DNA of 64,000 nucleotides. Origin: the human T2T-CHM13v2.0 reference genome, Homo sapiens. Positions within the stretch are counted from its first letter, which is position 1. The number at the start of each line of letters is the position of its first letter. Location: NCBI RefSeq assembly GCF_009914755.1, contig NC_060933.1. The stretch is one strand, 5' to 3'. The notes under the pieces are model-generated. The model worked only from the letters and a program-made list of their open reading frames with translations. It did not search any database and was not told where the DNA came from. Below, piece by piece: positions 8,998 to 50,079 of the stretch. A program made the position numbers and the translations under genes.

Positions 8998-10378
8998 AGT
9001 GGCCTGTGGTGTTCAAGGTTAAGTGCCTTCTCCTAATTCTGCAGAGTTGAGCTGGCTATCTACAGGTGTTCTTGCATGATCTGAAGAGACTTGTACACTG
9101 GCTGTAGGAGTGCATGGGGAGCACTGGCTATGGAAGTTGTGCGGAGTTCTGGGGGCACATGTGAGCTAGTTGGGGGGATAGTCCACATTCTGTAAGGTTT
9201 GTGTGTGAGCCTCTTGATGAAATTCGCAAGGTGGTTGGTAGAAACTGTGGCCCTTTGCTAAGTCCCATGTTCCAGTTGCTATGAGCTTCCACCACTTTTC
9301 CCTGTTCCTAGCTACTCAAAGACTATTTAGCTGTACCAATCCCTTCAGTGTTTAGGGTGGAGTGAAAAGAAAGTGCACCTCCCACATGGCTGGGGAAGCC
9401 AGGTACTAGTACACTACACTTTCACTTTCATCTTTCCCTGCAGGAGAAATCACAGGCTAAGAGGGCCTCTCTTGTCACTGGGCTGTGCCTTTGGGGGAAG
9501 GTTGATGCAAGTAAAGTGAAACTGTTTTTCTTACCCATTTTTCTATTGCTAGTCTCAGATTTTTTGCTCCTATGGGGTGCTGGAGCCTTTTTGCTGGACT
9601 TCCAGGCTTCCAGAAAGGTATTGTTGGCAATGGGCAGTTGCCAAAATTGGTGTGTCTGTGGAAGGCTAAGGACTCAAAACTCCTATTCTCACTGATGTCA
9701 CTTCTCAGTAAGTTGGTTTGTGAGTAATAAAATTAATATCTTCTTTTTATTTTTGCCCCAATATTTGTTTCTTAATTTTTAATTTTAATTTTAATTTTTC
9801 TTTTAAGTTTCACATATACCCGGTTTACAGGGTCAAATCATTAGAAAATCAAATAATTAGTAGATTTTCCTTCTTATCCAGCATACTGAAGACTTCATAT
9901 TTATACCAAAAAACAAATTTTTTAATATACCAAAATAAACAGACATTCCATTCTCTGAAGTCCTTGTGTGGATTCAACTGCTTACTAAGCAACTAACATA
10001 AAATATGAAATAAGTCTAATCATAACAAGTTAAAACAATGTTCTACCTTTAGAAATTTATTTAGAAATTTATATTAAGTACACATGATTCAAAGATTTTA
10101 GTAGTATTAATACTTATTCCTAGAAAGGATATATAATATTCTTCTGAGTATCTTTAAAACTGGATTAAAGGAAGGTGTCTTCTTATTTTTCTATTTTTCC
10201 TGCTTCCTGTTAGCTATTTTTAAAAATATTTTATTTGTTAGTTTGAAAGTTACTAATGAGACAAGCCAACACTCAGGATAATGCTTTTCTAGTTATCTGT
10301 TCCTTCTCATGACTGTTCCCTGAGAAAATCCAATTATCTTCTTCTATCACCACCATTTCACTCCCCACACCCTACAAC

Positions 10379-10586: not shown

Positions 10587-10881
<295 letters not shown>

Positions 10882-12399: not shown

Positions 12400-12725
<326 letters not shown>

Positions 12726-38998: not shown

Positions 38999-39448
<450 letters not shown>

Positions 39449-40280: not shown

Positions 40281-40356
40281 TTGTTTTTTTTTTTTTTGAG
40301 ACGGAGTCTCGCTCTGTCGCCCAGGCTGGAGTGCAGTGGCACAGTCTTGGCTCACT
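40281..40356 (-). mobile_element. Severely 5'-truncated Alu
   Basis: Only the Alu 3' ~60 nt plus T-tract, flanked by ACAGAG. Confidence 0.8.
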
Positions 40357-40613: not shown

Positions 40614-41440
40614 GGCCGGGTGTTGTGGCTCATACCTGTAATTCTGTTACAGGAAAGGGGTCCAGTCCAGATCCCAAGGGAGAATTCTTGGATCTCGTGC
40701 AAGAAAGAATTCAGGGTGAGTCCACTGTGCAAAATGAAAGTAAGTTTATTAAGAAAGTAAAGGAATAAAAGGATGGCTACTCCATAGACAGAACAGCCGA
40801 GGGCTGCTGGTTGCCCATTTTTATAGTTATTTTTTGCTTATATGCTAAACGAGGGGTGTATTATTCATGCCTCCCCTTTTTAGACCATGTAGGGTAACTT
40901 CCTGATGTTGCCATGGCATTTCTAAACTGTCATGGCACTGGTGGGAGTGTAACAGTGAGGACCAAAGTCACTCTCTTCGCCATTTTGGTTTTGGTGGGTT
41001 TTGGCTGGCTCCTTTGCTGCAACCTGTTTCATCAACAAGGTCTTTATGACCTGTATTTTGTGCTGACCTCCCATTTCATCCTGTGACTTAGAATGCCTTA
41101 ACTGTCTGGGAATGCAGCCCAGTAGGTTTTAGGCTCATCTTACCCAGCTCCTGTTTAAGATGAAGGTGCTCTGGTTCACTTGCCTCTGACGATCCCAGCA
41201 CTTTGCGAGGCCAAGGCGGGCAGTTCACTTGAGGTCAGGAGTTCGAGACCAGCCTGGCCAAAATGATGAAAACCCGTTTCTACTAAAAATACAAAAACTA
41301 GCTGGGCCTGTAATCCCAGCTGCTCTGGAGGCTGAGGCAGAATGGCTTGAACCTGGGAGGGGGAGGTCGCAGTGAGCCAAGATCACACCACTGCACTCCA
41401 GCCTGAGCAGCAGAGTGAGACTGTCTCCAAAAAAAAAAAA
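40614..41440 (+). mobile_element. Alu split by a MER41A-like LTR (pieces 40614-40644 and 41192-41440)
   Basis: GGCCGGGTGTTGTGGCTCATACCTGTAATTC | ATCCCAGCACTTTG. Confidence 0.88.
40645..41191 (-). mobile_element. Solo MER41A-like LTR
   Basis: Minus strand begins (C)GTCAGAGGCAAGTGAACCAGAGC, close to the recalled MER41A/B start, and ends CCTGTAACA; ~547 bp; 4-bp near-TSD ATTC/ATCC. Confidence 0.82.
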
Positions 41441-42233: not shown

Positions 42234-43620
42234 TCCGGGCCTCTCTCTACGCGTGGCTCCGCAGGCTCCATTCTCCACACAGTCGTCTAGGGGGGCGCCA
42301 GGAGCCCCGCGACGGGCCAGGCCGGAAGCTCAGCAAGTGCACCAGGCGGCGAAACGGCCGGCTGCGCAGGGCAGCCCCGGACACAGCCACGCCGCGGCCG
42401 CCCGGCGCTCCCCCGACCCAGCCGACCACGAAGCCGCCCTCCCCCTCACACCGCAGAACCTTTCTGCCTTTTACTACTTTTCAAAGTGGACCTAGGCTCC
42501 TGGCTCGAGCCTGAGGGGATACAAGGGATCACGAGGAGCGCCATCACCGTGCAAGGTCGACAGCTTCCGCTCAAAGCCCTGTGGCCCACGCTTCCGGCCT
42601 CGACCGACTACGTCATCACCAAACCCCGTGATACCTCACTCCACCTTCAGGTCCTCCGTCCCAACGGTTCCGTGTCCTGGAACTTTCCACGTTCCTGCGC
42701 ACGCGCTCTGCGGCCCTTAACGTCCCGACTTCGCCCTCCTCTGGCCACGCCCCTGCCCGTTAAGGGCCCTGCCACCCCCGTGACGTACCTATCTTCCCTC
42801 GGGCAACCTCGCAACAGATCTCTGATTGGCTGACCCAGGAAGCGGACTTTGCGAGGCGGCGGCGACGATAGGCTGGCAGCCGGCCGACTTCCGCAGAAGG
42901 TGATTGGTCGGCGCTGCTGTCCAATCGGCGGCGGGCTGTCGGATTCAAATTCGGATCGTTGGGACTGCGGTCGTTAGTCTCCGGCGAGTTGTTGCCTGGG
43001 CTGGACGTGGTTTTGTCTGCTGCGCCCGCTCTTCGCGCTCTCGTTTCATTTTCTGCAGCGCGCCAGCAGGATGGCCCACAAGCAGATCTACTACTCGGAC
43101 AAGTACTTCGACGAACACTACGAGTACCGGTGGGCGCCTTTCTTAGACCCCGAGCCGGCTCCCTCAGCCGGGGCCCCCGCGGGCGGGGCGACCCAGGCAT
43201 AGTAGGGTCGGGGGTGGGGGCCGGGGCCTGGGGGGCGGAGCCCGGGGCCGGAGGGCGAGGGCCGGGGTTTGGGGTCGCGGCCACCTGGCGCCCCGCGCAG
43301 TCGGACATGGTTGGGTGCCTGGCCGCGCCGGGCCGGTTGGGCCTTTGTTCGGTGTGCGCGGAGGGTGAGGGAAGAGTGCCCACCGGGCCGCATTTAGTAC
43401 CTGGGTAGGAACCGGCGCAACTTGGGGGTCATGGGGTCCTCGGCGACGCGGAGTGACCATCCCGTCACTTTTTTCTCGGCCGTGGCCGAAGTAATTAGGC
43501 CGTTCAGTAGCTGGTCTCAGTTCCAGTTCTTTGAACCAGTCCAGGAAAACCCACCTGGTGCCGTCCTTTTTCCTTTAGCAACCGTGACACACTTTCCCTG
43601 TCGCTGACGGGGTGATGCAG
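42200..43620. promoter_or_regulatory. CKS2: CKS2 CpG island promoter with NF-Y boxes and CHR element
   Basis: High GC/CpG; ATTGG 42825 and 42903, CCAAT 42921; TTCAAA (reverse CHR TTTGAA) 42944-42949; TGACGT 42781; GGAAG ETS core near 42838. Confidence 0.85.
43071..43129 (+). CDS. CKS2: CKS2 coding exon 1 (MAHKQIYYSDKYFDEHYEYR), CDK regulatory subunit 2
   Basis: Recognised N-terminus; GT donor at 43130; 59 nt. Confidence 0.98.
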
Positions 43621-44002
43621 CTTTTACTAGTTTGTGGTTTAGAATGGTCAAATGGTCATTTTCATCTGTTAACACAGAGGAACACTTTTCTTTTTCTTGT
43701 TTTTGAAGTGAGTGGTATAAGAATAAGCTTTGGAGGCGACCCCCCGAAAAATGAGCTTGATGGGGATTCGAAAATGTTTACTGGGTATGGTGATTTGGGC
43801 CATTATAGGTTAGCCGCAGTCATACAATTGAGGGTATTATTAAAGGAGTTTCATTTTAAGGCCGATTAAGAACTTGAGTGGACTTTGGGCATCATTTTCT
43901 GCTAGTATACACTGGCCAAATTTTGGGCTTTGAGAAACTTTTGCGTTTGAGTCCTGAAGCACCGTACTAGAACATGGTGGCTGTAATCGATCAGTAAAAT
44001 TA

Positions 44003-44084
44003 GACAAATTTTAAATGTCCCTGTCCCCTTCCCCCCAATTAAAGTAGATTGGGGGAAAGCGAGTAGGGACATTTAAAATTTGTT
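44003..44084 (+). ncRNA. MIR3153: pre-miR-3153 hairpin in CKS2 intron 1 (mature approx 44052-44074)
   Basis: Perfect 19-bp stem 44004-44022/44065-44083 plus an inner C-run/G-run stem; matches recalled miR-3153 GGGGAAAGCGAGUAGGGACAUUU. Confidence 0.85.
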
Positions 44085-46389
44085 GTCCTTACTGTATGCG
44101 GGACACTTCATTTAGGGCGTGGCTTCAGAAAACAGTCAACCCCTTTTTCTTAACTAGGTAGCGACTAGAACGCTGCGTTCTGGGATACTACCAAGATTTA
44201 GGGGAGATAAAGCCCATGCCATCGTTGGCCAAATTGTGACCTTGTTTTCTGTCTGCTGCCTTTGTAGGTTAGATTTCTCCGAATGCTATTTAAGGAAGAA
44301 AGAACAAAACAGTGGGTGGTTTCTCTTTTTCTCCCCCTCCCTAGTAGCATGGAAGTCTGTTTTCACATGAGGACTACTGAATATTTCTATGGGTAGTAGT
44401 AATTGCACCCTTTTGTATTCCTAGCTAGAAAAATAGCATGTTTTTCTGGCTGTAGGTAAATTTCAAGTAGATTGTGTTAACCTTATAGTAATAATAAACT
44501 ATACTCGTGTAATATGCTGGCAGTGTTCAATTATGCGATGTTAATCAAGAGCCCTATTGAGGATATCCAATAATGAACACAATGTAAACCGTAATAATCT
44601 TACTAAAACCTAGAAAATTATTCTGAAACACATCTGGTGCCAAGTGTTTAGGATAAGGATTTAAGGGTCGGTACAAGTTTCTTTTAGGGTATAATATTGA
44701 AAATAAATGAAGCTATTTCTCAGACTTCTTTCTGATGGCAGTAGGTCGATTTTTTAGTTTTAATATACTCAAATGATTTGTGTGTGGTAATGTATAGAAG
44801 AAAGTTTACATATCTGAAGTGATGTATTTTAATCCAATAAAAATTAGAGCTGGTATTAATTGGCCAAGCCAGTAACCTTTATGAAACAGGATAGTAATTT
44901 CCACACATAATTTTAAAGGGGAAACTAGTAATAATATAGCACTAAGGCATGAGTCTAGGGTGGTTTGTATTAATATGTAATGGTGCAGCATGCAATGTAA
45001 ATTTCAAAGGCTAGTATTTATTTTTCCCAGTGTGCAGTTATCTCTATCTTTCTTTGATTTTTCTTAATTACAAACTTAATTTCCTAGTCCTTTTACGTGA
45101 GGGTCTTAATGTTTCTAAGGGCATAACAGTGGGTGCCCCCACCCCCACATCATGGAAGTCTGTTTTCACAAGAGAAAAACTGTTAATTTTTCTGGGCAGC
45201 CTTACAAATTAGTAATACTTGCACTATTTTGCATTTCAACTGAAATAAACGTTAGATTTTGGAAATAATTTTCCTTACATGTAGTTAGTTTGAAATCTCT
45301 GTGTGGCAAAATACAGGTAGAATCCTCATATGGGGTTGATGCTACTTAAACATTTTTCCTTTATAAAGAAACCCTGATGGAGGAGAGCCTGTTTCCGTGT
45401 TTATGGAGAAGGGTGGTAACTTCTATCTAAATAACTTGTTGGTAGATTTATGTACTCTGTAAGTTTGATAGAAAAGGTACAAAAGCACTACATTTCTCTT
45501 TGAGAATAATCAACAAGATAGAACGTAGAAATAAGATAACAGATTATTTGAAGTTAGATGTTAAAGCAGCATTTCAAGAATGTGGGTGATAACTGGTAAG
45601 AATTACAAAGAATCACTATATAGTTCACTGGAATTGATGAAAACTCTACAAATTATGGTAGTAAGCTATGACTTGGTGGCCTTAAGGCAATCTAACAACA
45701 CAGTAGAATTTTTCTGAGGCTCACTTTGCCCTGCAAATAAATTGGTACTTAACCACAGACTAAAATTTAAGTTGATGACAGCTGGGTGCTTATAGCGGGT
45801 TAGGGATTCAGTTTACTGTGTCTCAGAAAGTGACCAGATTGCACCTCATTCATCCCCAGCCAGCTGACTCACAGACAGATATCTTATACTGGTTAAAAAT
45901 TTGGGTTGGTGGTTATGGATGGTTCAGTATAAAACTGTTGCTACTACTGCAGGTGGTAAACATGGAGCTGAGAATTGTGACTTTCATAAAGTCCTTTTTA
46001 TGGTAATTGAGTAAAAATTCTTACTCAATTTGGGGAAAGAGATTTGTTAGGCAAATCTTTGATAGAATGCTTTGGGATACTGTTAATGATACAGATTTGT
46101 TTTTGAGAATCTCGTAAGGCTACAATTATACATATTGATGGTTTAACTTTGAAGGTTATTCCATGCTTGCCTAAGAAACTGAACAATGTAAGTTTTGGAT
46201 ATAGGTCAGTAAATTAACTGGAAAACGGTGAGGTTGCACACAATGTGTATGTACAGTTAGTGGTTTTCTGTTTTTAATTTTGAACAAAGTACTTGAAGTA
46301 TAAAGCAACTTCTGGAGCATACAAGGACTAGTAGCTACTACAAAGCTAGTGTTGAGTAAGAGGAAACCCAAATTAACTGTAACTTAGAT

Positions 46390-46720
46390 TTTTTCGTTAC
46401 ATAAAAGTCTAATAATCTGGGGCAGGGATAACAGCATTACAGTCAAGGACTAGGCTGGGTCCTTACCTCTTGTTGCTTTACCGTTCTCAATTTACAGTTG
46501 CTTCTATGGTCCTAGATTCCTGCTCTGGCTCCCTGATCATATTAATGTGCATTCAACAAGAAGGAGAAAAAGAGTTCAGCATGTTCTTTCCCTTTGAGAA
46601 CACTTTTCATAATAAGTTACACATTTTCTTATATCTTGTTGGCTTATGATTTGGAGGCTGGTAACCATATGTTCAACTTATATTTTGGGGTTCTCTTCCT
46701 GAAGAAGATTAAGGCAACTG
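46390..46720. mobile_element. Decayed MLT1-like LTR fragment in CKS2 intron 1
   Basis: Loose similarity to old MLT1 LTRs (CTTATATCTTGTTGGC...GGAGGCTGG). Confidence 0.4.
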
Positions 46721-46947
46721 GTAAGCATTCTGTGATAAGAGAAAAAGATTAATCCTATGGAAAATGCTTTCTGCTTTTGGATTGTGCACTCTTAGCTCCC
46801 TAATTTGAACATAGGCCATCATATCAGAATTAAAGGTAGTAGATTGCAGTTCTCAATATTAAAGCAACAGAGTTCCTTAAGGTACATGTATAAAGCGACA
46901 GTTGTAGAAAAGGCACTGGACTAACACTTGGCTGTATCTTGTAACAG

Positions 46948-47075
46948 GCATGTTATGTTACCCAGAGAACTTTCCAAACAAGTACCTAAAACTCATCTGA
47001 TGTCTGAAGAGGAGTGGAGGAGACTTGGTGTCCAACAGAGTCTAGGCTGGGTTCATTACATGATTCATGAGCCAG
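46948..47075 (+). CDS. CKS2: CKS2 coding exon 2 ([42 protein letters not shown])
   Basis: CTAAC branch-like motif at 46921, AG at 46946-46947, GTAAG donor; 128 nt, phases consistent. Confidence 0.98.
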
Positions 47076-48146
47076 GTAAGCTATGCTATGTTATAGTAAA
47101 GCAGTAATTGTTGAAATATTGGTGGTTATGGTTGTCAAAATTTTAAAAATATCATTGACATCAAATGATATCTGAAAGTAACTGTTCTGATAAGTTTTTT
47201 TTTTAATGACTAATTTCTTGACTCTGGAGAGAGTTCCAATTTTATGGTAAATAAAATACCACAGCAGTGAAAGTAACACATTATTCTACTTGGAAAATAA
47301 TGTAAGAAGTAAAAAAAAAAAAAAAAAATGTATTTTAAAATCTGTATCATTGTTAACAGTATCCCAAAGCATTTTATCATAAATATATCCTAAGACAAGT
47401 GTTCTTATCTATGTGTGGAAATTGATTTAATTTAAAGTGATTCTTCAGCCCTCTGAAAGGATATATACCACATGAAGTTTAAATGAGGTAATAGCATATG
47501 AACTCAACTGTGCTTATGGGTACCTTATGCTATTATGTGGTATTAACCAAAAGTTTTTCAGGTGTTAAATAGTAAACTCTACTAAAACTTTGTGGGTTTT
47601 CTAGACTAAAACAGTGTGGGTTAAATTTTATATTTGGATTATCAGTAAATCTAACAGCATTTATAATGCTTTGAACAAAATTTGAAGACATACTATAGAA
47701 GCTGAAGTAGGTGGAATTAAAACTATCTTCTACTCTGCTGTTAAAGAAAAGCATTGCATCGAAAACTCTAAAAGGACTCATCACTTTCTTGGGATTGAGA
47801 TACGTAATCCTATTAGAATTCAGTCCAGATAATACAAAAGCAACTGAAGAACTTAAGTGTAGATTTCTGTGCCCCACCTATTGAAACAGAATCTATGGGG
47901 ATGAGCATTAGTATGAGATCCTGTAGGTGATTTGAAGGAGGTGTTTTTCCCTATAAAGAGGTAATCTTTTTACTTTTAATCTATTTACTGTAGACAGTAA
48001 CTGTGAAAAAAAAATCATTGGATACCTCAAACCAATTAATAGTGGACTTAGTTTATTTTATTCTGGCTTAGTTGAGAATACTTTTGAATTTCTGTTGAGT
48101 ATATGAAAATCATATTAAAATGATTCAAAACATTTTCTTTCCACAG

Positions 48147-48199
48147 AACCACATATTCTTCTCTTTAGACGACCTCTTCCAAAAGATCAACAAAAATGA
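48147..48199 (+). CDS. CKS2: CKS2 coding exon 3 (EPHILLFRRPLPKDQQK*)
   Basis: Pyrimidine tract plus CAG acceptor; TGA 48197-48199; total CDS 240 nt = 79 aa. Confidence 0.98.
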
Positions 48200-48453
48200 A
48201 GTTTATCTGGGGATCGTCAAATCTTTTTCAAATTTAATGTATATGTGTATATAAGGTAGTATTCAGTGAATACTTGAGAAATGTACAAATCTTTCATCCA
48301 TACCTGTGCATGAGCTGTATTCTTCACAGCAACAGAGCTCAGTTAAATGCAACTGCAAGTAGGTTACTGTAAGATGTTTAAGATAAAAGTTCTTCCAGTC
48401 AGTTTTTCTCTTAAGTGCCTGTTTGAGTTTACTGAAACAGTTTACTTTTGTTC

Positions 48454-48459
48454 AATAAA
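48454..48459 (+). terminator. CKS2: CKS2 polyadenylation signal
   Basis: AATAAA ~255 nt after the stop, followed by a U/GU-rich downstream region. Confidence 0.85.
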
Positions 48460-50079
48460 GTTTGTATGTTGCATTTATCACTGTTTCAAGTTTTTGAGGT
48501 ATATTTTCTTAATTTGTGACTATTGAAATTTGTGACTATTGAAATTGATTTCAGTGTTATAGTTTTAGCTCTGAGGAAGTTAACTTACCTTAAAGATGAT
48601 GTTAAATGAGTTTAAAATAGTGCGGTATGATCTGGATACCATTTAATTCACTTAATGAAGAAATTAATTACCAGGGATATGTTTAAACTAAAGCCAAAGT
48701 AGATTTTACCTCTTGAATTCCTGGAGAATTGTCTAGAACAGGAAAGCCCAAATTAATACTATCTGGGCTACTTCACTGGCCACTGGTGGTCTTGGGAGAA
48801 ACCTCTTTTTTATCCTCTTCTACATTTCCAAAGTAGGGATAATGTTTCCTATAAAGTATCACCACATTTTTAAAAGTTCAAAAACACTGTAAAACACCTT
48901 TGCCTTTTTAGCTGCTAGGAAAGTGTTTTGGAGTTATTCTAATTAATTGCTATGCTATAGAAACATCTTAAATGAGCAGCCAGCATACATCAGGTCCATT
49001 GGTTAAGAAAGGGTGTCTTTACACATGAGGGCAATAAATTTTGAAGGTTGTGATTAGCAGCATCCTAAAATCTACTGCCACTACCATAGGTTGTGTCCAG
49101 GGTAACCAACAGAAACATGACAAAATCAAGTAAACTTCATTACACTTCCGGGTAGACCCAATAGTGCTGAAAGGAAGGCGACAGCTACCCCTAAACTTCC
49201 AGCATAAATTCCTGCCAGACCAGACCCTAAGGATCACTTCTGCTAGAGGCTGTGTAGTGAACTGAGACCCACCAGGACAGAAATCTGAAAAAACTGGAGC
49301 TGCACCTGCCTTACTTGCTTGAAATACTTCGTATTCAATGGTAGAGTTAACGTCTGTGCAAGGGACAGAGGAAACCTACAATTTGCCTCAACCTAATCCC
49401 CATTCCTCAAATAGCCTGTTTTGCTGACATTTTCTGTTCCTTAAATCCACTTGCACTTTCCTCCAAGCCTTTGAGTGAGAGGAAAGTTCCTCCTCCATCT
49501 ATTGAAATCCACTCTGCATTCTTCCCTGTACTTTTGGTCAACCTCCTATCCCTGCCGCACTTTATACATTTCTCTCAATATTTAACGAATTTGCTCTGTG
49601 TAGAACTTTTTTTTTCTCGTGAAAATTATACTATTCCATCTCTTGACCATATCTTAGCACTTTTTTTAATTTTTGAAAGAAACCGAGCGATTTTTAAATT
49701 ATTTTCTGTGGCTACTTCCAAACTTAAGGTTTCTGGAAATTTAGGATACCATCAAGAGTCTTGTAGGCTTTCCAGGTTTGTAGGACCTACAGGGTATGCA
49801 ATTCCTGTAAGTCACCAATCTTGGGGAAATTTTAGGGAAATGCAGTGGCGGGGGTGAGAGTAATCTCGGCCTCCTCAGTTTCCTTATTAGTAAATCTTTC
49901 TCTTCAGGTGACTGCTCAAAGGTCACCTCAGCGAGAGGCCTTTCCAGACTACCCCATCCCGTCCTAACGCTAGACTCGTGAGGCCCAGGGGAGAAAAGTA
50001 AATCACGGCCTAACTCTTGTTTATAGTCGCTACTGCCTTGGTGGAGACTATCTCCGATATCCCAGCACTAAAAGGCAGA

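What the first reader, a model, noticed from the sequence alone, without database searches (positions are those of the whole stretch)
46047..47393. Non-repeat long-range inverted repeat bracketing CKS2 exon 2: candidate RNA loop-out / circRNA switch
Seen: intron 1 arm 46060-46098 (TGATAGAATGCTTTGGGATACTGTTAATGATACAGATTT) is complementary to intron 2 arm 47338-47379 (AAATCTGTATCATTGTTAACAGTATCCCAAAGCATTTTATCA). The duplex is 14 bp, a 3-nt bulge, 19 bp, one G-U and 5 bp, with weaker extension to 46047/47393. I recognise neither arm as a transposon. The arms sit ~850 nt upstream and ~260 nt downstream of the only internal exon (128 nt, frame-shifting if skipped). Established: intronic complementary pairs can promote exon skipping or back-splicing, or bridge splice sites. 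Inference: a structure-based regulator of CKS2 splicing or output, or a circular exon-2 RNA, that I do not know to be described.
Basis: partly seen in the sequence, partly recalled or inferred. Interest (0 to 1): 0.8.

Follow-up and report, generated by a model that had tools for sequence, protein, structure and literature searches.

The report
Unique inverted repeat bracketing CKS2 exon 2
Two matching 46-base stretches in opposite orientation really do flank the middle exon of the cell-cycle gene CKS2 and could pair in the RNA, but they look like a by-product of a DNA copying slip, and nothing yet shows that they control splicing.

Summary
Arm 1 (46053-46098, core 46060-46098) and arm 2 (47338-47387, core 47338-47379) are reverse complements: 14 bp, a 3-nt bulge, 19 bp, one G-U, 5 bp. 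Predicted duplex energy is -55 to -61 kcal/mol, against -16 on average for shuffles. Each arm's next-best partner in the 5.5-kb pre-mRNA reaches only -24. The helix appears in both the MFE and centroid folds.

The arms are not a detectable transposon. In the 3.1-Gb genome each arm matches only the other.

Arm 1 is bounded by an exact 9-nt direct repeat (46040-46048, 46093-46101), and its match to arm 2 ends inside the second copy. This fits a one-step, microhomology-mediated templated inverted insertion that copied arm 2. Such an event creates complementarity without selection.

A random 200-kb genome sample held one comparable two-copy inverted repeat, so the class is not rare.

Function is unshown:
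- One RefSeq transcript is annotated.
- No circCKS2, RIC-seq or editing report was found.
- CKS1B has no analogue.
- A 128-nt exon is a poor candidate for circularisation.

Conservation could not be tested, because no other mammalian genomes were on hand. My verdict is a real, probably neutral or weakly acting loop-out duplex of a known kind. Interest is modest.

The parts
46053..46098 (+). Arm 1 of the inverted repeat, in CKS2 intron 1 (core 46060-46098). It lies 849 nt upstream of the exon-2 acceptor and is the proposed derived copy.
   Evidence: Its only other genomic match is arm 2.
47338..47387 (+). Arm 2 of the inverted repeat, in CKS2 intron 2 (core 47338-47379, with 3 extra nt at 47352-47354 forming the bulge). 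It lies 262 nt downstream of the exon-2 donor and is the proposed source.
   Evidence: Its only other genomic match is arm 1, plus one low-complexity hit that covers the A-tract. No flanking direct repeat of 6-9 nt was found.
46040..46048 (+). First copy of the exact 9-nt direct repeat AGATTTGTT, just outside arm 1. It is the proposed departure point of the template switch.
   Evidence: (family D13).
46093..46101 (+). Second copy of the 9-nt direct repeat. Its first 6 nt are the last 6 nt of the arm-1/arm-2 homology and its last 3 nt lie outside it. It is the proposed return point (microhomology).
46948..47075 (+). CKS2 exon 2 (128 nt), the only internal exon, enclosed in the 1,239-nt loop. 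Skipping it gives a 26-codon frame that ends in exon 3.
   Evidence: Hub gene table.
47313..47330 (+). A18 tract 7 nt upstream of arm 2. It can pair locally with a T-rich run at 47190-47219. It is context, not part of the duplex.
   Evidence: (pairs I2 and I4).

Best explanation
This is a genuine, genome-unique inverted repeat of about 46 nt. It most likely arose in one step, when about 50 nt of the complement of the arm-2 region in intron 2 was copied into intron 1. The mechanism would be a microhomology-mediated template switch or templated insertion, which left a 9-nt duplication around the new arm 1. In the pre-mRNA the arms can form a 38-bp duplex with one bulge that loops out exon 2 and 1.1 kb of intron. 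The expected effects are those of a stable exon loop-out: some tendency to exon-2 skipping, which would give a truncated 26-residue product; a likely ADAR substrate; and at most trace back-splicing. I judge it a neutral or weakly acting by-product of mutation, not a selected switch. What is shown: the repeat exists, it is unique, it is predicted to be stable and specific, and arm 1 has a flanking duplication. What is inferred: the direction and mechanism of origin, a recent age, and the small size of any splicing effect.
For: Repeat and energy are given. The helix is present in both the MFE and the centroid of the 1,451-nt fold. Each arm's best partner in the 5,505-nt pre-mRNA is the other arm at -56 kcal/mol; the next unrelated site reaches -24. 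No other genomic copy appeared with 91-, 601- and 621-nt queries, and there was no weak repeat signal over either arm in about 250 kb of sampled genome. Arm 1 is bounded by the exact 9-nt direct repeat AGATTTGTT, and the homology ends 6 nt into the second copy. Such a flanking repeat occurs at 195 of 63,700 positions in the window (0.31%) and at a median of 0.3% across 21 sources. Arm 2 has none at k=6-9. One comparable two-copy inverted repeat (88 nt, 92%, 426 nt apart) turned up in 200 kb of random genome, so such repeats arise without any link to exons. Template switching is documented to create new inverted repeats and hairpins in human-chimp comparisons (passages of PMC5453318), and the template need not be close in linear sequence (passage of PMC7954356). 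No alternative CKS2 transcript is annotated (hub table), no literature trace was found, and CKS1B has no analogue.
Against: The direct repeat was noticed after the fact. Its background frequency is 0.3-0.4% in ordinary sequence but 2.3% over all sampled positions, because one tandem-repeat locus dominates. Identity is uneven: 1 mismatch in the 39 core columns against roughly 5 in 14 outer columns (Fisher p=0.0035, my rough count). A single neutral copy does not predict that; selection on the core, or later homogenisation, could. Catalogued short template switches were sought only within about 100 nt, whereas this template lies 1.24 kb away. The base rate rests on one event in 200 kb. No outgroup genome was available, so age, direction and conservation are untested. 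A -55 kcal/mol helix around a constitutive exon is the class reported as depleted and linked to lower inclusion (passages of PMC8052449), so a real splicing effect cannot be dismissed.
Confidence: 0.55

Rival explanations
1. The pair is a selected RNA switch. It is maintained because looping out exon 2 tunes CKS2 output through frame-shifting exon skipping or a circular exon-2 RNA, perhaps in response to elongation rate, ADAR or dsRNA helicases.
For: The duplex is very stable and mutually specific. It brackets the only internal exon at 849 and 262 nt. Inverted repeats of under 40 nt suffice for circularisation in minigenes (PMC4201285 passages). Looped-out exons have lower inclusion, more so for stable helices, and editing is strongly enriched below -30 kcal/mol (PMC8052449 passages). 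The core is much better preserved than the outer part. The single core substitution keeps pairing as G-U.
Against: Only one RefSeq transcript is annotated (hub table). No circCKS2, RIC-seq or editing report was found. CKS2 is not among the 296 bridge and 1,135 loop-out candidates. The 128-nt exon is well below the sizes that circularised in minigenes: 400 nt or less was poor and 51 nt gave none. The paralog CKS1B has no comparable pair. A one-step mutational origin explains the complementarity. One G-U-compatible change has a prior near one in three and proves nothing.
Confidence: 0.15
2. The arms are an older quasi-palindrome or inverted duplication of unknown origin. Its core was later homogenised by gene conversion or a classic quasi-palindrome correction, with no function. 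The 9-nt direct repeat is coincidence and the direction of copying is unknown.
For: Identity is uneven, with a near-perfect core and decayed, gapped outer homology that reaches about 46043/47399. Conversion of near-perfect into perfect inverted repeats is a described template-switch outcome (PMC5453318 passages).
Against: The homology ends exactly inside the second copy of the direct repeat, as the insertion model predicts. The outer match may be chance plus AT-rich slippage.
Confidence: 0.15
3. Both arms are fragments of one transposon family inserted in opposite orientation.
For: This is the usual source of intronic inverted repeats. In the window and the 200-kb sample, 30 of the 32 short high-identity inverted pairs are Alu pieces, judged by eye against recalled Alu sequence. 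I could not run RepeatMasker or Dfam, and window.fa carries no soft-masking.
Against: There are only two copies in 3.1 Gb, although the tool warns its counts are lower bounds. There are no weak relatives over the arms in about 250 kb. Old, undetectable families would not give about 93-97% arm-to-arm identity. The hub's list of the longest masked stretches has none between 34792 and 51844. An ancient exon lies between the arms, so they cannot be the termini of one element.
Confidence: 0.05

Closest known systems
Short intronic complementary sequences that drive back-splicing (ZKSCAN1, HIPK3, EPHB4 minigenes; Liang & Wilusz 2014, PMC4201285, passages read)
   Same: Reverse-complementary stretches of about 36-40 nt in the two introns flanking an exon, able to bring the splice sites together.
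   Different: The arms here are not Alu-derived. The enclosed exon is only 128 nt, whereas ZKSCAN1 exons of 400 nt or less circularised poorly. The arms are 849 and 262 nt from the splice sites, an A18 tract abuts arm 2, and no circular CKS2 RNA is reported in the searched literature.
Exon loop-outs by pairs of conserved complementary regions (Kalmykova et al. 2021, PMC8052449, passages and two supplementary lists searched)
   Same: An intronic duplex within 10 kb that places an exon in a loop. Its energy is far below the paper's most stable class (-30 kcal/mol or lower).
   Different: Those pairs are defined by conservation, which is untested here. CKS2 is not in the candidate loop-out or bridge lists, and the full catalogue files were too large to read. 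CKS2 exon 2 is annotated as constitutive.
Template-switch mutations that create inverted repeats and hairpins (Loytynoja & Goldman 2017, PMC5453318, passages; Walker et al. 2021, PMC7954356, passages)
   Same: A reverse-complement copy of nearby sequence inserted in one event, with short identities at the switch points, creating an RNA-pairing potential without selection.
   Different: The catalogued events use templates within tens to hundreds of nt and mostly shorter copied fragments. Here the template is 1.24 kb away, the fragment is about 50 nt, and the event is inferred from one genome only.

Membership tests
circRNA-promoting intronic complementary sequence pair | Reverse-complementary sequences in the introns on both sides of the exon, about 30-40 nt or more | tested here: met
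   38 bp with one 3-nt bulge. The threshold comes from PMC4201285 passages.
circRNA-promoting intronic complementary sequence pair | A back-spliced (circular) RNA of the enclosed exon exists | not testable with these tools
   No RNA-seq or circRNA database was on hand. 0 papers hold circCKS2 or circ-CKS2. In the one paper I opened of the 75 that hold both CKS2 and circRNA, CKS2 is an mRNA target.
circRNA-promoting intronic complementary sequence pair | Enclosed exon long enough to circularise efficiently | tested here: not met
   The exon is 128 nt. In minigenes, exons of 400 nt or less circularised poorly or not at all, and a 51-nt exon gave none.
Conserved exon loop-out (PCCR type) | Stable intronic duplex within 10 kb that encloses an exon | tested here: met
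   -54.9 to -61.5 kcal/mol with a 1,239-nt loop. The class definition was seen.
Conserved exon loop-out (PCCR type) | Both arms evolutionarily conserved, ideally with compensatory substitutions | not testable with these tools
   No non-human vertebrate genome is held. Scans of genome contigs and viral contigs with an exon-2 alignment found no mammalian contig.
Conserved exon loop-out (PCCR type) | The enclosed exon is alternatively skipped | tested here: inconclusive
   The hub table lists 1 of 1 RefSeq transcript. CKS2 is absent from the 1,135 loop-out and 296 bridge candidates. No junction data were available.
Transposon-derived inverted repeat pair | Further copies of the arm sequence elsewhere in the genome | tested here: not met
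   Only the two arms match each other in 3.1 Gb. There were no weak hits over the arms in about 250 kb. The tool's counts are lower bounds.
Template-switch / templated inverted insertion | Reverse-complement copy of nearby sequence with short identities or a duplication at the junctions | tested here: met
   An exact 9-nt direct repeat bounds arm 1, and the homology ends 6 nt into its second copy. The background frequency is about 0.3%. The repeat was noticed after the fact.
Template-switch / templated inverted insertion | Empty site in an outgroup or ancestral sequence | not testable with these tools
   No outgroup genomes were available.

The most novel reading that the evidence does not exclude
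A single template-switch mutation in the primate lineage created, in one step, a 38-bp intronic duplex that loops out the only internal exon of CKS2. It has since been kept because it throttles CKS2 protein output, by exon-2 skipping to a 26-residue dead-end product or by a small circle, in response to transcription speed or ADAR and helicase activity. That would be a datable, one-step birth of a structure-based splicing regulator in a core cell-cycle gene.
Probability: 0.1. Interest if true: 0.6.

Novelty: new member of a known kind. Interest (0 to 1): 0.3.

Why it matters
If the duplex forms in cells, it sits in the class of very stable exon loop-outs. That class is reported to be depleted around exons and is linked to skipping and A-to-I editing. 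Here it surrounds a constitutive, frame-critical exon of a highly expressed cell-cycle and cancer-marker gene. The flanking 9-nt duplication also makes it a clean candidate for showing how a kilobase-range template switch can create long-range RNA pairing without selection. That matters for interpreting 'striking' intronic complementarity genome-wide. If it has no effect, it is a useful negative control for structure-based splicing predictions.

Tried and rejected
- **Transposon origin.** Three whole-genome searches and a relaxed BLAST against about 250 kb found no further copies.
- **Known RNA family.** Rfam at E<=1 over 42900-48600 gave 6 weak matches, all at the MIR3153 hairpin and none at the arms.
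- **Ancient tandem duplication of the exon-2 region.** Scattered 12-16-nt direct matches are non-collinear, and BLAST gives them E>=0.22, so I rejected this.
- **Paralog analogy.** CKS1B exon 2 (L006) has only 4 weak or low-complexity inverted pairs, none comparable.
- **Orthologous sequence from contaminant contigs.** The 42-aa peptide was too short. An alignment query (A2) found 2 loci in genome contigs and 7 in viral contigs, none mammalian.
- **Literature.**
  - Of the 75 papers holding CKS2 and circRNA, I opened one, where CKS2 is an mRNA target.
  - Of the 12 holding CKS2, exon skipping and intron, I opened two, which give gene-level expression only.
  - circCKS2 and its variants gave 0 papers.
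  - CKS2 with RIC-seq gave 0.
  - CKS2 with A-to-I and intron gave 1, which looks irrelevant from its listing.
- **Supplements.** Those of PMC10691357 and PMC10573301 were closed. The full PCCR tables of PMC8052449 were too large to read. Any of these could list this pair.
- **Earlier findings.** They were closed.
- **Flanking direct repeat at the L023 comparison pair.** None was found.
Full report

Yes. Reading 45900-47550 and the repeat finder show two adjoining pieces of one inverted repeat:
- 46055-46086 with 47353-47384 (32 nt, 91% complementary);
- 46085-46098 with 47338-47351 (14 nt, 100%).

The pieces are offset by three extra bases in arm 2. The energy is -54.9 kcal/mol. With flanks it is -61.5. 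500 shuffles of arm 2 averaged -16.4 (sd 3.5, best -32.0).

In a local BLAST of the exon-2 region against the rest of intron 1, this pair has E=1.75e-8 and everything else has E>=0.22.

The geometry is also as stated:
- arm 1 ends 849 nt before the exon-2 acceptor;
- arm 2 starts 262 nt after the donor;
- the exon is 128 nt;
- joining exon 1 to exon 3 gives a frame that stops after 26 codons, inside exon 3.

The claimed 'weaker extension' is only partly real. Outside the core, identity drops sharply and the alignment needs gaps. The inner ends (46098 and 47338) are sharp.

**2. Would the RNA fold this way?**

A fold of 46000-47450 (1,451 nt) contains the long-range helix in both the minimum-energy and the centroid structure.

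I scanned the whole 5,505-nt pre-mRNA in 70-nt windows. The best partner of each arm is the other arm, at -56 kcal/mol. The best unrelated site reaches only -24. Arm 1's own local hairpin is -12.7 and arm 2's is -1.7, so neither is a serious competitor. These are thermodynamic predictions, not measurements.

**3. Is it a transposon?**

Not detectably.
- Whole-genome searches of the window's own 3.1-Gb assembly with 91-, 601- and 621-nt queries found only the reciprocal arm. The one extra hit covers the A-tract and is low-complexity. The tool warns that its counts are lower bounds.
- A relaxed BLAST of both intron regions against about 250 kb of other genome found nothing over the arms.
- Rfam found nothing at the arms.
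- window.fa carries no soft-masking, and I could not run RepeatMasker. The hub's list of the longest masked stretches has none between 34792 and 51844.

Other inverted pairs in this kind of sequence are mostly Alu. In the window and a random 200-kb sample, 30 of the 32 short (30-90 nt, >=88%) inverted pairs within 5 kb are Alu pieces, judged by eye against recalled Alu sequence. Old families too diverged to be detected would not give 93-97% identity between two independent copies.

**4. Where did it come from?**

Arm 1 is bounded by an exact 9-nt direct repeat, AGATTTGTT, at 46040-46048 and 46093-46101 (family D13). The homology to arm 2 ends six bases into the second copy. The remaining three bases continue the first copy's context.

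That is what a microhomology-mediated template switch would leave. The sequence of events would be:
1. Synthesis proceeds through the first copy.
2. It jumps to the complementary strand at the arm-2 region.
3. It copies about 50 nt.
4. It returns by annealing on the shared six bases.

Arm 2 has no flanking direct repeat at k=6-9, so arm 1 would be the derived copy.

A flanking 9-mer of this kind occurs at the following rates:
- 195 of 63,700 positions in the window (0.31%);
- a median of 0.3% over 21 sources;
- 5,829 of 257,700 positions overall (2.3%), of which 4,729 come from one tandem-repeat locus, L028.

I noticed the repeat after the fact, so I treat it as moderate support only.

Template switching is documented to create new inverted repeats and hairpins between human and chimpanzee (PMC5453318, passages). 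The mechanism does not require a linearly close template, although catalogues searched only about 100 nt either side (PMC7954356, passages). A 1.24-kb jump is therefore an extrapolation.

From one substitution in 39 core columns, or about three in 44 across the arm, and a recalled neutral rate near 1e-9 per site per year, the copy would be roughly 10-35 million years old. The error on that figure is very wide. This is inference.

One feature does not fit a single neutral copy. The core is far better preserved than the outer part, at about 1 in 39 against 5 in 14 (p=0.0035, my rough count). Possible reasons are AT-repeat slippage in the outer part, a shorter true copy, later homogenisation, or selection on the core.

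**5. How unusual is such a repeat?**

Twenty random 10-kb stretches contained one other non-Alu pair: L023 9079-9163 with 9589-9676 (88 nt, 92%, 426 nt apart). It too has only two copies in the genome.

One event in 200 kb is a very loose estimate. It still suggests thousands of such unique local inverted repeats genome-wide. By my own rough reasoning, some would bracket an exon by chance.

**6. Does it do anything?**

*Evidence for plausibility*
- In minigenes, inverted repeats of under 40 nt suffice for circularisation (PMC4201285, passages).
- Exons looped out by complementary regions show lower inclusion, more so for stable helices. Such loop-outs are depleted around exons.
- A-to-I editing is strongly enriched for helices below -30 kcal/mol (PMC8052449, passages).

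*Evidence against, or missing*
- The same minigene study found that exons of 400 nt or less circularised poorly or not at all, that a 51-nt exon gave no circle, and that G-U pairs and poly(A) can limit circles. CKS2 exon 2 is 128 nt, and an A18 tract abuts arm 2.
- RefSeq annotates a single CKS2 transcript (hub table).
- No paper holds circCKS2 or variants.
- In the one CKS2-plus-circRNA paper I opened, of 75 hits, CKS2 is an mRNA target.
- The two CKS2-plus-exon-skipping papers I opened, of 12 hits, report gene-level expression only.
- CKS2 with RIC-seq gave 0 papers. CKS2 with A-to-I and intron gave 1 paper, which looks irrelevant from its listing.
- CKS2 is absent from the 296 RNA-bridge and 1,135 exon loop-out candidates of PMC8052449. 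Those lists require an RBP peak and a knock-down response, so absence is weak evidence. The full catalogue files were too large to read.
- CKS1B, the paralog with the same exon structure, has no comparable pair around exon 2.

**7. What could not be done**

The discriminating test is conservation of both arms, or an empty site at arm 1, in other species. It was not possible because no non-human vertebrate genome is held. A scan of bacterial and viral collections for stray mammalian contigs carrying exon 2 found none. No RNA-seq, circRNA, editing or proximity-ligation data were accessible.

**8. Verdict**

The inverted repeat is real, unique in the genome, and thermodynamically strong. It loops out the only internal exon of CKS2. 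It has a plausible one-step mutational origin that needs no selection. It belongs to known kinds: intronic complementary pairs, exon loop-outs, and template-switch products.

I put about 55% on a neutral or weakly acting by-product made by a templated inverted insertion. I put about 15% on a selected splicing or circRNA switch, about 15% on an older repeat with a homogenised core, and about 5% on transposon fragments. The remainder is unassigned. Interest is modest (0.3). It would rise sharply if both arms prove conserved, or if junction or editing data show the duplex acting in cells.

Noticed in passing
L023:9079-9163 and L023:9589-9676 (G000 C13, random sample): This is another non-Alu local inverted repeat with only two copies in the genome: 88 nt, 92% identical, 426 nt apart. 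No flanking direct repeat of 7 nt or more was found (one 6-mer only). It shows that the class exists away from the CKS2 case.
   Followed up: partly
window 45136-45199 vs 44333-44396: A direct similarity of 75% over 64 nt within CKS2 intron 1 (E about 1e-7). It may be an old local duplication or a low-copy repeat.
   Followed up: no
window 39268-39325, 40284-40356, 41371-41440: Three short Alu end fragments in alternating orientation, upstream of the CKS2 promoter inside the lncRNA LOC105376136. They give 58-72-nt inverted pairs about 1 kb apart.
   Followed up: partly
window 10743-10829 vs 12473-12559: An 87-nt inverted pair at 78% identity, 1.6 kb apart, outside the listed masked stretches. 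It is probably an older repeat family.
   Followed up: no
window 44003-44084: The MIR3153 hairpin matches Rfam mir-4716 on both strands at about 35 bits, well below the gathering score of 76. That is expected for a near-palindromic hairpin.
   Followed up: no
window 47190-47219 vs 47304-47333: A T-rich run and the A18 tract in intron 2 are complementary (30 nt, 70%). They would form a local U/A helix between exon 2 and arm 2.
   Followed up: no
L028 (G000 C16:51263398-51273397): This random sample locus behaves as a tandem-repeat or satellite-like array. 49% of its positions have a flanking 9-mer direct repeat at about 45-nt spacing, and it dominated the pooled background.
   Followed up: no
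L031:3001-3126 (contig of a MAG labelled Acidobacteriota): A 42-residue stretch 64% identical to the Cks exon-2 peptide lies at the very end of a 772-kb contig. It could be eukaryotic contamination or a bacterial Cks-like gene.
   Followed up: no
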